From NCBI GenBank assembly GCA_045837725.1, contig JBEWZL010000309.1, positions 1 through 64,000 on the forward strand: a stretch of 64,000 bases of DNA. Reading direction: 5' to 3'. The position numbers were made by a program, and so were the translations under genes. Below the pieces are notes generated by a model. The model did no database searches, had not been told where the DNA came from, and saw nothing but the letters and a program-made list of their open reading frames with translations. Shown piece by piece: positions 16,525-23,814 of the stretch (the first letter of the stretch is position 1; each line of letters opens with the position of its first letter). The stretch comes from Vermamoeba vermiformis. Lineage: Eukaryota.

Positions 16525-19410
16525 TTAAAATTGAAAAACTCTCATAAGTCTACGTCTTCTTTGTCACCGTTTGTAAAGGTTATAGTCCCTTTGCTGAAGG
16601 CTACGATTATACTCGAAAACTTTATCGGTTACGTTACCAGGCGTGAAAGCGTAACGTCTTCATCTGGATCGGTTACTTCTCCAACCGATATAATTGTAAT
16701 AGCTATAATTATATTTTGTGTCTACACTAGGAAAAAATAAATATGTATTTGAAAATCTACTATACCACTTTTTAGGATAATAAGGCATAGACAAATGTCC
16801 AGGTATATGTTGCACCGTACGCCACAAGCTTCTTCGAAATTTTTTCCTACTTCGTTTATTCACGTATTTTTCAACAAGTCTAGGTAAACTAACTTGCAAT
16901 GATTCTAAAAAAAGTGTTACCCTTTCCGGTCTTGGGTCCGGTTTTCAAAAATACTTAGACCAGTCACCGAACGCGGTTCAATCACGAGTTTCACGCTTAA
17001 ACTGCATAACGGTAGAATACAAATAGTGCTTCTTTCTATTAGGAGCTAAAAATTTCATACTTTTTTGTGTAAAATCCTCTCAATTCTTAAGAGTATTCTT
17101 ATAAAGTAGAAGCCTTATTCGCTCAAAATGGAAAGTCTCCAATTGCATTAACTTAAATTTTTGTCTTGCTCTATACATCCTAAACTTATGAACGCGTCTA
17201 AATTTTACATCCGGAGCAGTATGATGGCGCATTTTATCAAAGAAATAGCGCCCCCATTCCCCAATAGGTAACCCCAAGAAATCCTCAACCCATCAACCTG
17301 AAAAAACAAATCTGCGGGAAGGTATAAAAAAACGAAGGTAAGCCCTATAATGCTTTCCTCTTCGACGATGAAAAAATCAAACATAAACACAATAAAACAA
17401 AAAAGGAAACAACACTAAAAACTCAAAAAACGTTAAATCTTCATCAGGATCAAAAATTCAATCACTAAATAATGAATCTCTGTAATGTAATTCCTCAAAA
17501 GTAGGCGTATAAAGAGCCTCAAACATTCATTTCAGCGAATCCTCTATGTACAAAAGTTCAGGTTCACCGACTATTTCGCTTAAATAATGACGTTCCAAAC
17601 TCGTATTAGAATCTAGAGGATCAGCGTCACGCATCTTAGTCGGCCTCTTCGTAAAACCAAGATCAGACTCAATTATTTCTCTAACTTTAAGGGTCTCCTC
17701 AGACTCGTTAAAAAGTTCTTCTTCATCAGGAGTCTCATCTTCTGTATCATACTCCTCATCAATATACTCAAAGTCACCATAAATAAACTGTAAAGACTCA
17801 ACATGCTCAAATGAAATATCAAGCATAGCAAAATATATTTTAGCTTCATTTGTCTGAAGAGTCAAAAAGTCCATGCTTTGCGGTATTCAATCCTGCGTAC
17901 GTTTTGCTTCTTTTAATAACATGTGCGGAGTCTTGGGCGGGGTTTTAACTGAAACCCTAAAATCAAAATCCAAAAACCAAAAAGCAATTATGGAAGCATA
18001 AAGATGAACAAAAGCTCAATTCAAGTAGCTGTTACGCAAAATACCACGCTGAACACCATGATTTAAATACTCGTATCAAGTAGAAATAAGGCCAAAAATA
18101 GTTAAATCTTTAAAATAGCTATTCAATAACGGTATTAACCAATCTAAAATAGTTATGAAAAAAGAGTACAATTTTATAAGAAAGAAATCAGAAAAGATAG
18201 AAAAATTTATGTTAATATAATTAACTAAATAATCAGGTAAAATTAAAAGAAACAAGTAAGACAAGAAAGAAAAAAATACTTTAAGAATACCCAGTAAAAA
18301 AGAAAATATAAAAACAAAAATTATTTTAAAAATAAAAAATAAAAAAATTATAAAATTATCTGAAAATAAAAAGTTCTTAAATACATCAATCAAAGCATTA
18401 ATTTTAATAAGGGAACCCCCCACAAAAAAGATATTTTTAAATAAAACCCCAAAAATTAGTAAATTCTTTAAAATATCTAGTAAGGACGAACAATAAACGC
18501 CAATCACAGAAATAAAAATAAAAAATAAAAAAATAAAAAATTTTATAAAATAATATTTTAACGACGAAAGTATAATTAAAAAAAGTGAAAAAACATTAAG
18601 GTGAAAAAGTATAAAAATATACTTAAAGAAAAAAACAAAAACAAATGACCCATAATAAACAAAATTATTACCAAAAAAAAAATCAAAAATAAAAGCTAAA
18701 TACTTGTAATCCTTAACAAAATTAACAACGTAAGCCAAATAAAAAGACTTAATAGTAACAAAAGTAAAATCAGCCAGATATAAATAAAGAAAAGGGATAA
18801 AAATCGAAAAAATAAAGAAAGATACATACCAAATTAAAAAATATGAAAAATAAAGAAAAATTCTCTGGGCTCATTGAAACAAAAAATAGACTTCATCATC
18901 CTGAAGAATAATTTTATTTTTTCGCATGAGACGTTTTTTCAACCGTTTAGAAGTATAAAGAGCTGGCAAAAAACTTATTAAAATCAAAGCCTTTATTGGC
19001 ATAGCGTGAAGCGACCAATTAGTAAAAGGTATAAGACTAGAGGTCAAAAAAAATAGGTTATTCGTAACAAAATAGAAAAGAGTGGACAAAGTCCAATAAA
19101 GCGAATCAAGCTCTATTAAAGTAGGTCTATACAGTATAAAAATAAGAAAAGCAAGGCGAACAATATACATTAACCGATGTTTAACTACAAGATCACGAAA
19201 CACGGTGAAATATTTTATTAAACTTAAGCGCAGATCAGAGAAAAAATTTTTTAAAAAAAAATTAATTGGAGCAAGAATAAACCTCACATCGTTATAGCAA
19301 GCGCTTAAAAAAGACCAAACTCTTACAAACCGGGAAGATTCGTCACTAAGGAATTTAGGCAACAAAAATCAAATAAACTTTAAAATTAAACCTTTAATTT
19401 TTTTAAACAT
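16525..19410 (-). CDS. Unassigned giant ORF (961 aa)
   Basis: Five ORF-track pieces share one frame. I read the gaps and found only TGA, no TAA or TAG. Ends 1 nt before the cox1 ATG. Confidence 0.85.
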
Positions 19411-22144: not shown

Positions 22145-23814
22145 AAAAAATTATTATTACTATTATTATTATTAACCCTCTTTGTAGGACTCTTTGAATT
22201 CAAAACATTAAAATGAGTGTTATATTGTCGCGAAAAAAACCAGTTTTCACTCGCTTCAGCAACTCCAAAAACATTTTGGTTTAAACTAAAAAAAAAATCA
22301 GCACCCCATATCGGCAAATCGTTTACATTAAAATAATCTAGATACAATGGAAAAGGTGGTGGTAAAATAGAAGCAGAAAAAAAAGACAACTTATTTGTAG
22401 TTAAGTACATATTTTTAGGGAAAAAAAAGCCATTATGGTGGCGATAATTATCAATATAGGAAGATGTAATGGAAAATATGTTAGAAAAAACCCTGTCCTT
22501 TTGATAAATATAGTAAAAAATTTTATCAACAGTTTTCTTACTGTTATAAGTAAAAGTTAAATTAGAAGATAACAAAAAATCATATATATTCCTCTTTTCA
22601 AAAAAATTTAAATTTTTTTGAAAAGAGGAATATATATAACGATAAAATTTCACTAATAAATTCTTTGAAGTCTCCTTTAAAGAAGCTTTATATAAATTCA
22701 TCTCAAAGTTAAACTGACCTGTTGATACTAAATCTGAAATTTTTACAACACGAGCTAAAGTGGCATAAAAAAAAGCTCATAGGTGCGCATGAAATAGCTT
22801 AAATATAAAAACTAAAGTGACATTAAAAATAGGCAAAACTATTTTTGAATATAAAAAACGCCGAATATTAAATCTGTTAAAATATGTAAAAAACTGAACT
22901 AAAAAGAATATACGTCAAAATATAAAAATAAAACCAAAAGTCGTAGCTCAGCCCATAAAGTGTAAGTCTATAAATTGATCATAATAAAACATGGAGGCAG
23001 CAGACTGAGAGACACCCCAACAAATTAAAAAAGAAAACAGAAACATAAAAAAATAAATTTCTCAACGATAAAAATGCCCATTGTCATCTCATTCAACAGG
23101 ATGTTGCGGATAAGCGAAATTCACCTCTTCATTATCTTCGATAGACGGCTCAATAACACCACGTCTATCTTCACGAAAAAAATATCAATGATTTTGAGCT
23201 TCCTCCTCATCAATCTCCTCAGTTTCTCGTCTATTTAAGGAACCATCCTCTATCATACGAGTATAAGTAAACGAAAAAAAATAAATCATACCTAAATAAA
23301 TCGAAGCATAAAACATCTCCAGAGTAGAATAAAAATGATGTCGCTTAAAATAAAACATTACAAAAGAGGAAGACATAAGCTTAGGACTAAAGGCATAGCA
23401 TTCAAGAGTATGTGAATAGAGCAATAAAAAAATACGCGTATGCTTCATAGCTCACGCATGTTTTTTCGATTTTCCGTAAGTACGAACATTATAATCACCA
23501 AACATTCGATCTACATTAAGCAGATTTCTATATGGTTTCATGTGTTTATTATAAGCAGCGTGCAAATAGGTCTGGCTAAAATATGTTCTATAATTATAAT
23601 TATAATCTAACTTCATAAAGCTTAGATTTTGAAACCCAAAATCTGAATTAAAGGAATAACTATAAGTAGAACCAAAATTATTAAAAAATCAGAAAAACAT
23701 AGAATGTAAAACTTCTAAGGTAAAATCATAAAAAAATAAATCAGAAAAAAAAGAAAGCTCAGGTTGAGCAATTAAAAGAACCAATAAGGCAGAAGATAAA
23801 ACAACCAAAGGCAT
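22138..23814 (-). CDS. Unassigned ORF (558 aa)
   Basis: ATG at 23814 to TAG at 22138 with only TGA in between. Overlaps orf913 by 7 nt. Confidence 0.83.

What the first reader, a model, noticed from the sequence alone, without database searches (positions are those of the whole stretch)
16525..23814. 7.3-kb cassette of three overlapping giant orphan ORFs hidden by the TGA=Trp code
Seen: the many short ORF-track fragments merge into orf558 (23814-22138), orf913 (22144-19403) and orf961 (19410-16525). They overlap by 7 and 8 nt and are coupled to cox1 by a 1-nt spacer. Long frames free of TAA and TAG in very AT-rich DNA imply selection. All three have long F/I/L-rich hydrophobic runs. orf961 adds an acidic block ([22 protein letters not shown]) and an R/K/W-rich C-terminus, and orf558 has an acidic block (RRETEEIDEEEAQ). 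I see no polymerase, RT, LAGLIDADG, GIY-YIG or CcmC/F motifs. Inference: a co-expressed, lineage-specific inner-membrane complex. This is the best candidate in the window for an undescribed system.
Basis: partly seen in the sequence, partly recalled or inferred. Interest (0 to 1): 0.82.

Follow-up and report, generated by a model that had tools for sequence, protein, structure and literature searches.

The report
Three conserved orphan mitochondrial membrane genes
Three large back-to-back genes in the mitochondrial DNA of the amoeba Vermamoeba vermiformis are real, selected and predicted to encode membrane proteins, but nothing like them is known outside this amoeba group and their job is still unknown.

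Summary
Under table 4 the minus strand carries orf558 (22138-23814), orf913 (19403-22144) and orf961 (16525-19410). They overlap by 7 and 8 nt and sit 1 nt from cox1. The window is a Vermamoeba vermiformis-complex mitochondrial genome.

All three are genuine genes. Full-length relatives at 48-72% identity keep the same order in 4 of 4 environmental contigs long enough to show it. pN/pS is 0.23-0.52 overall and 0.09-0.28 in the core domains.

They are predicted polytopic membrane proteins with constrained acidic and basic extramembrane domains.

No known family fits. Pfam, NCBIfam, PDB profiles, a profile search of 1.84 billion proteins and hhalign against CcmF/CcmC gave nothing. AlphaFold2 models were unusable, at pLDDT 38 and 44.

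A relative is already deposited as a V. vermiformis "hypothetical protein". These are known but uncharacterised clade-restricted ORFs.

My guess at function is structural subunits of inner-membrane respiratory or translation machinery, by analogy with ciliate Ymf proteins. That is inference only. Whether the three form one complex was not tested.

The parts
22138..23814 (-). orf558: a 558-aa protein. It has an N-terminal hydrophobic segment, a basic His-rich block, an acidic block flanked by hydrophobic helices, three further hydrophobic helices (254-343) and a conserved C-terminal domain.
   Evidence: Open under table 4; translation. 7 relatives at 64-72% identity. 11-row alignment with 75% mean column identity. 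pN/pS 0.23-0.37. No Pfam, NCBIfam or PDB hit.
22855..23634 (-). Constrained core of orf558 (aa 61-320), including the acidic block at aa 186-250 (nt 23065-23259) and two conserved hydrophobic helices.
   Evidence: 79-86% identity to three orthologues and pN/pS 0.09-0.16. Many invariant His, Cys and Trp columns. Hydropathy.
19403..22144 (-). orf913: a 913-aa protein. It has hydrophobic blocks at aa 1-69, 171-194, 225-244, 298-384 and 864-909, and a 479-aa extramembrane domain.
   Evidence: 4 database relatives at 52-57% identity plus orthologues in L001, L003, L006, L007 and L008. pN/pS 0.39-0.52. No Pfam, NCBIfam or PDB hit.
19556..20884 (-). Large extramembrane domain of orf913 (aa 421-863), net basic, with many invariant aromatic and charged columns.
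   Evidence: Alignment A2; loop statistics; pN/pS 0.33-0.41.
16525..19410 (-). orf961: a 961-aa protein with a weakly conserved polytopic N-terminal half and a strongly conserved C-terminal half.
   Evidence: 18 relatives at 48-72% identity, plus the identical entry. Alignment A1. pN/pS 0.29-0.40. No Pfam, NCBIfam or PDB hit.
18121..19191 (-). N-terminal polytopic region of orf961 (aa 74-430). Hydrophobicity is kept but the sequence is weakly constrained, apart from an invariant short motif near aa 345-352.
   Evidence: Hydrophobic blocks. 36-49% identity and pN/pS 0.47-0.64. Invariant columns K345 to N352.
17443..17970 (-). Acidic loop of orf961 (aa 481-656; 44 D+E against 16 K+R) between two conserved hydrophobic helices (aa 462-480 and 657-682). 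It is the best-conserved part of the protein and is inferred to face the intermembrane space.
   Evidence: Loop charges and mean conservation 0.88. 80-90% identity and pN/pS 0.09-0.17. The topology is inference from the positive-inside rule.
16528..17364 (-). Basic, aromatic-rich C-terminal domain of orf961 (aa 683-961; 64 K+R against 20 D+E), inferred to face the matrix.
   Evidence: 72-82% identity and pN/pS 0.17-0.28.
14892..16523 (-). cox1, immediately downstream, 1 nt after the orf961 stop codon.
   Evidence: Pfam COX1 E 3.7e-153; junction sequence. The same 1-nt spacing is seen in L001, L003, L006 and L007.
23976..25219 (-). Upstream neighbours on the same strand: four tRNA genes (Pro, Phe, Ser, Ala; 23976-24399) and cox3 (24419-25219). 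A 161-nt spacer separates tRNA-Pro from the orf558 start.
   Evidence: ARAGORN; Pfam COX3 E 1.4e-106; sequence.

Best explanation
The three ORFs are real, separately translated protein-coding genes of the mitochondrial genome of the Vermamoeba vermiformis species complex. They lie in one tightly packed same-strand gene run (cox3, tRNAs, orf558, orf913, orf961, cox1, rps4, nad5 and so on). Stop and start codons overlap or nearly touch, so they are most likely made from one polycistronic transcript with coupled translation (inferred). Each encodes a predicted polytopic membrane protein. Its hydrophobic segments drift fast in sequence, while its charged extramembrane domains are held under strong purifying selection. 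These domains are the acidic blocks of orf558 and orf961, the very basic C-terminal domain of orf961 and the 479-aa domain of orf913. The family is restricted to this amoeba clade as far as sequence methods can see. This is probably because the proteins change about 7-8 times faster than cox1, so relatives in other genera would be unrecognisable. The function I commit to, at about 40%, is inference only: they are structural subunits of inner-membrane machinery, either lineage-specific additions or unrecognisably diverged pieces. On this reading the acidic loops face the intermembrane space and the basic tail of orf961 faces the matrix. Respiratory-chain complexes are the first candidate and a mitoribosome or insertion tether the second. 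Ciliate Ymf ORFs turned out this way. The confidence given (0.6) is for the statement as a whole. That they are real, selected, clade-restricted genes I hold at about 0.9, and that they are membrane proteins at about 0.7.
For: Real genes. There are no internal TAA/TAG in 558, 913 and 961 codons, against 25-71 in each off-frame. Full-length relatives exist: 18 for orf961, 4 for orf913 and 7 for orf558, at 48-72% identity. Order and boundaries are kept in all 4 contigs long enough to show them (L001, L003, L006, L007). pN/pS is 0.23-0.52 overall with synonymous sites saturated, against cox1 0.03-0.06, rps4 0.15-0.20 and cox2 0.24-0.30. Cores are as constrained as nad5 or rps4: orf558 aa 61-320 at 0.09-0.16 and orf961 aa 481-656 at 0.09-0.17. 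TGA codons sit on invariant Trp columns.

Organism. The mtDNA carries tufA and rpl19, which is reported for Hartmannella/Vermamoeba vermiformis (passages of PMC3590771 and PMC7194472). An orf558 relative is AKT93962.1, 'hypothetical protein AB846_53 [Vermamoeba vermiformis]'.

Membrane proteins. Kyte-Doolittle blocks are conserved at family level.

Clade-restricted. The profile search of 1.84 billion representatives returned only this family (24 of 24 hits).

Transcription (suggestive). 5 RNA-seq runs from 3 studies hold 0.31-0.69 of the sampled words.

Precedent. Ciliate mitochondrial Ymf ORFs proved to be split or extended COX3, a haem-binding complex IV subunit and nine mitoribosomal proteins (passages of PMC10060162 and PMC7326499).
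Against: Nothing links any of the three ORFs to a particular complex. There is no detectable homology, and both AlphaFold2 models have very low confidence (pLDDT 37.6 and 44.1). No proteomic data were available. The canonical amoebozoan gene set (nad, cob, cox1-3, atp1/4/6/8/9) is already complete in the window, so they do not stand in for an obviously missing core subunit. The hydrophobic F/I/L-rich runs partly reflect the T-rich coding strand, and those regions are only weakly constrained (pN/pS 0.5-0.9), so the number of true membrane helices is uncertain. The topology rests on the positive-inside rule alone.
Confidence: 0.6

Rival explanations
1. They are extremely diverged (and extended or split) versions of known mitochondrial or bacterial genes, for example cytochrome c maturation CcmF/CcmC, SecY, TatC, Sdh3/4, Cox11 or ribosomal proteins, that sequence methods no longer recognise.
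For: The ORFs evolve fast: window against L003 is 50-63% identical for the ORFs and 94% for cox1. Homology could therefore fade quickly. The best hhalign match of the orf961 profile to E. coli CcmF falls on the CcmF tryptophan-rich motif (orf961 650-666 against CcmF 239-255, 41% identity over 17 columns), and that orf961 stretch is invariant. The orf558 profile scores 12.0 bits against the window's own rps13 (aa 455-507 against 48-102), and 0 of 3000 shuffles reach that score (best 10.6). Ciliate Ymf67/68 turned out to be a split COX3 (PMC10060162, passages).
Against: The CcmF match has probability 0.24% and E 0.25. The His that follows the motif (H681) is not conserved in the family. Pfam Cytochrom_C_asm, SecY, TatC and RNA polymerase models gave no hit at E up to 10 for any of the 14, 9 and 11 family members scanned. 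A2 against CcmF and A3 against CcmC gave probability 0.2%. PDB profile searches gave 0 hits. The rps13 similarity was 1 of 129 profile-protein comparisons, the basic rRNA-binding residues are not kept, and Pfam S13 does not hit any of the 11 orf558 relatives. The combined size, 2432 aa, far exceeds any of these candidates.
Confidence: 0.15
2. The three proteins assemble with each other into one dedicated, lineage-specific inner-membrane complex.
For: Adjacent position, overlapping reading frames and conserved order in all 4 informative contigs fit equimolar co-expression. All three are predicted membrane proteins.
Against: No interaction evidence of any kind. In this genome nearly every gene on the strand is packed equally tightly, including the 1-nt spacer to cox1, so adjacency says little. 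The three are unrelated to each other.
Confidence: 0.2
3. They are remnants of an integrated mobile element, such as a linear-plasmid DNA or RNA polymerase gene pair or viral genes.
For: ORFs of 900-1000 aa are the usual size of plasmid-derived dpo/rpo genes in mitochondrial DNA (recalled background; a centrohelid example with polB and rpo is mentioned in PMC7194472).
Against: No polymerase, reverse transcriptase or endonuclease domain at E up to 10 in any family member. All three have multiple hydrophobic helices. Position is fixed between tRNA-Pro and cox1 in lineages whose synonymous sites are saturated. Purifying selection is strong. G+C (0.25-0.35) is within the range of the rest of the window.
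Confidence: 0.03
4. They are non-functional open frames kept open by chance or base composition.
For: Very A+T-rich DNA. The N-terminal hydrophobic parts approach neutral evolution (pN/pS up to 0.95).
Against: Off-frames carry 25-71 stop codons. Length and boundaries are conserved across lineages with saturated synonymous sites. There are long runs of invariant residues, and core pN/pS is 0.09-0.28.
Confidence: 0.02

Closest known systems
Hypothetical proteins of the deposited Vermamoeba vermiformis mitochondrial genomes (e.g. AKT93962.1, 'hypothetical protein AB846_53', UniRef100_A0A0K1HP61)
   Same: The same gene family. P0070 sits in the 90%-identity cluster of P0026, which is 72% identical to orf558. 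PMC10100766 (passages) gives cox1 of that record as AB846_56. By the conserved order, this puts the three ORFs at tags _53 to _55 (my inference). A protein identical to the window's orf961 is held from NCBI (P0004).
   Different: The window's strain is 28-50% diverged in these proteins. Its genome also carries a large rRNA-bearing inverted repeat and exceeds 64 kb, whereas the related contigs are about 51 kb. No function is assigned in any record I could see.
Ciliate mitochondrial Ymf ORFs (Tetrahymena)
   Same: Large, fast-evolving, clade-restricted mitochondrial ORFs with no recognisable family, some over 1000 aa. Structures later showed them to be split or extended core subunits, accessory respiratory subunits or mitoribosomal proteins (PMC10060162 and PMC7326499, passages).
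   Different: No sequence relationship was found. Ciliates and Amoebozoa are unrelated lineages. For Vermamoeba no structural or proteomic assignment exists, so the likeness is one of kind, not of membership.
CcmF/CcmC haem-handling proteins (WWD family)
   Same: Polytopic membrane proteins. One invariant 17-residue stretch of orf961 aligns with the tryptophan-rich motif of E. coli CcmF.
   Different: The match is not significant (probability 0.24%). There is no Pfam hit, the following histidine is not conserved, and the motif sits in an acidic soluble loop rather than a Trp-rich hydrophobic loop.
Plastid Ycf1/Tic214-type giant organelle ORFs (recalled from general knowledge, not from any call)
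   Same: Giant organelle-encoded proteins with an N-terminal polytopic membrane part and a long charged, fast-evolving extramembrane part. They stayed orphans for a long time.
   Different: A different organelle, and no sequence similarity was tested or expected. This is an analogy of architecture only.

Membership tests
CcmF/CcmC (Pfam Cytochrom_C_asm, WWD haem-handling proteins) | Significant match to the family profile or sequence | tested here: not met
   No Pfam hit at E up to 10 in 14, 9 and 11 family members. hhalign against E. coli CcmF/CcmC gave probability 0.2%.
CcmF/CcmC (Pfam Cytochrom_C_asm, WWD haem-handling proteins) | Tryptophan-rich WWD motif flanked by conserved haem-ligand histidines | tested here: not met
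   Only a partial motif is present (orf961 650-666). It lies in an acidic loop. The histidine after the next helix (H681) is replaced by Arg in some relatives.
Plasmid- or intron-derived mitochondrial ORFs (DNA/RNA polymerase, reverse transcriptase, LAGLIDADG, GIY-YIG) | Recognisable catalytic domain | tested here: not met
   No such Pfam family at E up to 10 in any member of A1, A2 or A3.
Canonical mitochondrial genes of gene-rich protists (secY, tatC, sdh, cox11, rpo, ribosomal proteins) | Pfam or NCBIfam profile match | tested here: not met
   No hits for the three ORFs. The same scans recognised 34 other genes of the window, including the diverged rps3, rps13, atp8 and atp4 and, with NCBIfam, rps4.
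Ribosomal protein S13 | Profile match and conserved basic rRNA-binding motif | tested here: inconclusive
   The orf558 profile scored 12.0 bits against the window's rps13 (E 1.9e-4 for 43 targets; 0 of 3000 shuffles reach 12.0). Pfam S13 does not hit any of the 11 relatives, and the basic residues are not kept.
Clade-restricted unassigned mitochondrial ORFs (Ymf-like; a class defined by exclusion) | Mitochondrially encoded, conserved under purifying selection within a clade, no detectable relatives outside it | tested here: met
Clade-restricted unassigned mitochondrial ORFs (Ymf-like; a class defined by exclusion) | Protein product present in mitochondria | not testable with these tools
   No proteomic data were available. 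RNA-run k-mer shares of 0.31-0.69 are only suggestive.

The most novel reading that the evidence does not exclude
The three genes encode truly novel proteins with no ancestor among known mitochondrial proteins. They would have arisen within the Vermamoeba lineage and now form essential, mitochondrially encoded parts of inner-membrane machinery. One example is a giant accessory module of the respiratory chain, with conserved acidic intermembrane-space domains that could dock basic partners such as cytochrome c. Another is a membrane tether for the mitoribosome through the basic tail of orf961. This would be a mitochondrial counterpart of the giant plastid Ycf-type ORFs.
Probability: 0.3. Interest if true: 0.6.

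Novelty: new member of a known kind. Interest (0 to 1): 0.42.

Why it matters
About 7.3 kb of this mitochondrial genome, over a tenth of it, is spent on three proteins that no current method can name. Yet their core domains are held as tightly as nad5 or rps4. Organelle genomes rarely keep genes without a strong reason. In ciliates, such orphans turned out to be hidden core subunits or new parts of respiratory complexes and ribosomes. V. vermiformis grows axenically (PMC11702301, passages) and is widespread in water systems and biofilms. A single complexome or cryo-EM experiment could therefore assign these proteins and show how amoebozoan mitochondria have been rebuilt. The genes are already in public records as hypothetical proteins, so the gain is in function, not discovery.

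Tried and rejected
- **Earlier findings and own genome:** closed or not held.
- **ESM Atlas:** I did not resend it and sent no relative in its place.
- **Pfam:** the window's three proteins at E up to 0.01 and all members of A1, A2 and A3 at E up to 10. Only scattered single-member hits appeared (Ipi1_N, DUF3276, DUF5643 and the like), which I take as noise.
- **NCBIfam at E up to 1:** nothing for the three ORFs.
- **PDB sequence profiles of A1, A2 and A3:** 0 hits at E up to 1 or 10.
- **Profile search of 1.84 billion representatives with A1:** only this family.
- **AlphaFold2:** orf558 (11 rows) gave pLDDT 37.6 and orf961 (27 rows) gave 44.1. Both are too poor for any fold search, so none was run.
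- **hhalign among the three:** probability below 1%, so they are not paralogues.
- **hhalign against E. coli CcmF and CcmC:** not significant.
- **hmmsearch of the three profiles against 43 window proteins:** only the weak orf558-rps13 match. A first script that also ran 129 hhalign jobs timed out, and those jobs were dropped.
- **Viral-contig scan with cox1:** 2 loci. L010 is an unrelated mtDNA with cox2 upstream of cox1 and no relatives of the ORFs. L011 was not examined.
- **Genome-contig scan with A3:** none of 103 pattern matches encodes a relative.
- **Complex prediction:** not used. With monomer models this poor it could not have changed my odds.
- **Literature:** searches found no paper that discusses these ORFs. 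PMC2863963 is not held. I could not read the paper that describes the second V. vermiformis mitogenome (Fucikova and Lahr 2016, cited in PMC10100766 and PMC11702301), and it may comment on them.

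
Full report
**What is there**

Under NCBI table 4 the minus strand of the window carries three long open frames at exactly the reported coordinates:
- orf558: 22138-23814
- orf913: 19403-22144
- orf961: 16525-19410

The stop of orf558 overlaps the start of orf913 by 7 nt (ATGTTAG). The stop of orf913 overlaps the start of orf961 by 8 nt (ATGTTTAA). 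The orf961 stop is followed after one base by the cox1 start. The three frames contain 8, 10 and 14 TGA codons and no internal TAA or TAG. The other two frames of the same strand contain 25-71 TAA+TAG each. The quoted acidic blocks and the basic, Trp-rich C-terminus are present.

**Context and organism**

The window is a gene-rich mitochondrial genome.
- On the minus strand lie nad4L, nad1, nad11, rpl19, nad2, nad4, cox2, nad5, rps4, cox1, the three ORFs, four tRNAs, cox3, rnl, nad6, rps2 and rns.
- On the plus strand lie atp1, a ribosomal-protein cluster that includes tufA, then atp8, atp4, nad3, nad9, nad7, atp6 and cob.
- A large inverted repeat carries rnl, nad6, orf682, orf127, rps2, rns and many tRNAs (mirrored coordinates).

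A mitochondrial tufA together with rpl19 is reported for Hartmannella (now Vermamoeba) vermiformis (passages of PMC3590771 and PMC7194472). A cluster look-up shows that a relative of orf558 is AKT93962.1, 'hypothetical protein AB846_53 [Vermamoeba vermiformis]'. PMC10100766 (passages) gives cox1 of that record as AB846_56, which fits three ORFs directly upstream of cox1. So the window comes from the V. vermiformis species complex, and the ORFs are already deposited as hypothetical proteins.

**Are they genes?**

Yes.
- orf961 has 18 database relatives at 48-72% identity, most of them full length, plus an identical NCBI entry.
- orf913 has 4 relatives at 52-57%.
- orf558 has 7 relatives at 64-72%.

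A metagenome scan returned 8 loci. The 4 long enough to show neighbours (L001, L003, L006, L007) all keep the order orf558, orf913, orf961, cox1, with the same overlapping or 1-nt junctions. L003 and L006 also show cox3 and tRNAs upstream. L003, L006 and L007 show rps4, nad5, cox2, nad4, nad2, rpl19 and nad11 downstream. L008 holds parts of orf913 and orf961.

Nei-Gojobori estimates under table 4:

| Gene | pN/pS |
|---|---|
| orf558 | 0.23-0.37 |
| orf913 | 0.39-0.52 |
| orf961 | 0.29-0.40 |
| cox1 | 0.03-0.06 |
| rps4 | 0.15-0.20 |
| cox2 | 0.24-0.30 |

Synonymous sites are saturated (pS 0.6-0.76), so these ratios overstate omega.

By region, the cores are as constrained as ordinary mitochondrial genes:
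- orf558 aa 61-320: 0.09-0.16
- orf961 aa 481-656: 0.09-0.17
- orf961 aa 683-961: 0.17-0.28

The hydrophobic N-terminal parts are weakly constrained, at 0.47-0.95.

TGA codons fall on conserved Trp columns. For orf961, 8 of 14 are invariant and 2 more are at least 90% Trp. For orf558, 5 of 8 are invariant.

**Anatomy**

Family-averaged hydropathy shows the following.
- orf558 has an N-terminal hydrophobic segment, then a basic His-rich block. An acidic block (about aa 186-250) lies between conserved hydrophobic helices. Hydrophobic helices at aa 254-343 and a conserved 215-aa C-terminal domain follow.
- orf913 has hydrophobic blocks at aa 1-69, 171-194, 225-244, 298-384 and 864-909, and a 479-aa net-basic domain.
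- orf961 has hydrophobic blocks between aa 74 and 429 that would hold roughly ten helices (my estimate from block lengths). A conserved helix at 462-480 follows. Then come a 176-aa acidic loop (44 D+E against 16 K+R; mean conservation 0.88), a helix at 657-682 and a 279-aa basic tail (64 K+R against 20 D+E).

By the positive-inside rule I infer that the acidic loops face the intermembrane space and the basic tail faces the matrix. This is inference. The three proteins are not paralogues (hhalign probability below 1%).

**What they are not**

- The window's three proteins have no Pfam family at E up to 0.01. Scans of the 14, 9 and 11 family members at E up to 10 gave only scattered single-member hits, which I take as noise.
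- There is no NCBIfam hit.
- PDB profile searches gave 0 hits.
- The same scans named 34 other genes of this genome, including poorly conserved ones.
- A profile of orf961 run against 1.84 billion representative proteins found 24 hits, all this family: one full-length representative and fragments.
- I noticed that an invariant stretch of orf961 resembles the tryptophan-rich motif of CcmF. hhalign against E. coli CcmF does pick that stretch (650-666 against 239-255), but with probability 0.24% and E 0.25. The following histidine is also not conserved. Comparisons of orf913 with CcmF and of orf558 with CcmC were equally empty.
- The orf558 profile scores 12.0 bits against the window's own rps13. 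None of 3000 shuffles reaches that score. It was one of 129 comparisons, Pfam S13 hits none of the 11 relatives, and the basic residues are not kept. I leave it as unexplained.
- AlphaFold2 gave pLDDT 37.6 for orf558 and 44.1 for orf961, so no fold search was justified.

**How it most likely works**

Shown: three separately bounded, selected genes in a same-strand, tightly packed run, encoding proteins with conserved hydrophobic segments and conserved charged domains, and restricted to one amoeba clade.

Inferred: polycistronic transcription with coupled translation, an inner-membrane location, and the topology above.

Between the window and L003 these ORFs are 50-63% identical while cox1 is 94% identical. 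At that rate relatives in other genera would be unrecognisable. 'Orphan' may therefore mean fast-evolving rather than newly born.

The canonical amoebozoan core set is complete without them, with atp9 seen at 32454-32702. They do not replace an obviously missing subunit.

By analogy with ciliate Ymf ORFs, I put about 40% on structural subunits of respiratory complexes or of the ribosome-membrane interface. Those ORFs proved to be split or extended COX3, a haem-binding complex IV subunit and mitoribosomal proteins (PMC10060162 and PMC7326499, passages). I put about 15% on unrecognised known genes, about 20% on the three forming their own complex, and very little on mobile-element remnants or chance ORFs.

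**Expression**

A k-mer search found the 7.3-kb stretch in 20 of 24 listed runs from 14 studies. These include hot-spring, biofilm and bioreactor metagenomes and several isolate-type samples. Five RNA-seq runs from 3 studies hold 0.31-0.69 of the sampled words, and a sixth RNA run holds 0.15. I could not lay the reads. This is suggestive of transcription, not proof.

**Novelty and verdict**

The genes are real, conserved and functionally unknown. They are already present in public records as hypothetical proteins of V. vermiformis mtDNA, and large unassigned mitochondrial ORFs are a known kind of thing in protists. My literature searches found no paper discussing them. I could not read the paper describing the second V. 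vermiformis mitogenome.

I rate this a new member of a known kind, of moderate interest. It is a clean, tractable target for complexome or cryo-EM work rather than a surprise in itself.

Noticed in passing
window 1-2780: A 143-bp unit is repeated 19.4 times head to tail at 100% identity. The array runs from the first base of the window into tRNA-Arg (2756-2830). It has no ORF of 50 aa or more. It could be a real repeat region or genome end, or an assembly artefact.
   Followed up: partly
window about 25296-35619 (-) and 54020-64000 (+): A large inverted repeat carries rnl, nad6, orf682, orf127, rps2, atp9, rns and about 15 tRNA genes. One arm ends inside cob, so an 80-aa copy of the cob C-terminus sits at 35377-35619. 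Related contigs are only about 51 kb.
   Followed up: partly
window 37972-38044 (+): The only tRNA-Trp found has anticodon CCA, yet TGA outnumbers TGG as the Trp codon in the three ORFs (32 against 20). Decoding TGA would need anticodon editing or modification, or an imported tRNA.
   Followed up: no
window 46600-49092 (+); 29143-31191 (-) and its copy 58436-60484 (+): Two more large unassigned ORFs. orf830 is very basic and K/N/F-rich, and lies directly after rps11. orf682 lies in the inverted repeat. Neither has a Pfam or NCBIfam hit.
   Followed up: partly
window 10534-12006 (-): cox2 is 490 aa. The Pfam COX2 domains match only from residue 300 on, so about 300 residues of unmatched sequence precede the best-matching stretches.
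   Followed up: no
window 23452-23454 (orf558 codon 121): This TGA (Trp) codon stands where all 10 aligned relatives have Arg. It is either a real substitution or a sequencing error.
   Followed up: no
window 14180-14872 (-); 7310-7564 (-); 32454-32702 (-): orf230 next to cox1 is rps4 (NCBIfam TIGR01017, E 3.1e-11, below the curated cut-off). An 84-aa ORF between nad2 and rpl19 looks like rps16, and an 82-aa ORF in the repeat looks like atp9. Both of these were judged by eye from the translations, not tested.
   Followed up: partly
window 22294-22452 (orf558 aa 455-507) against 45916-46080 (rps13 aa 48-102): A weak local similarity between the orf558 family profile and the window's own rps13: 12.0 bits, with 0 of 3000 shuffles reaching it. 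Pfam S13 does not support it. It remains unexplained.
   Followed up: yes
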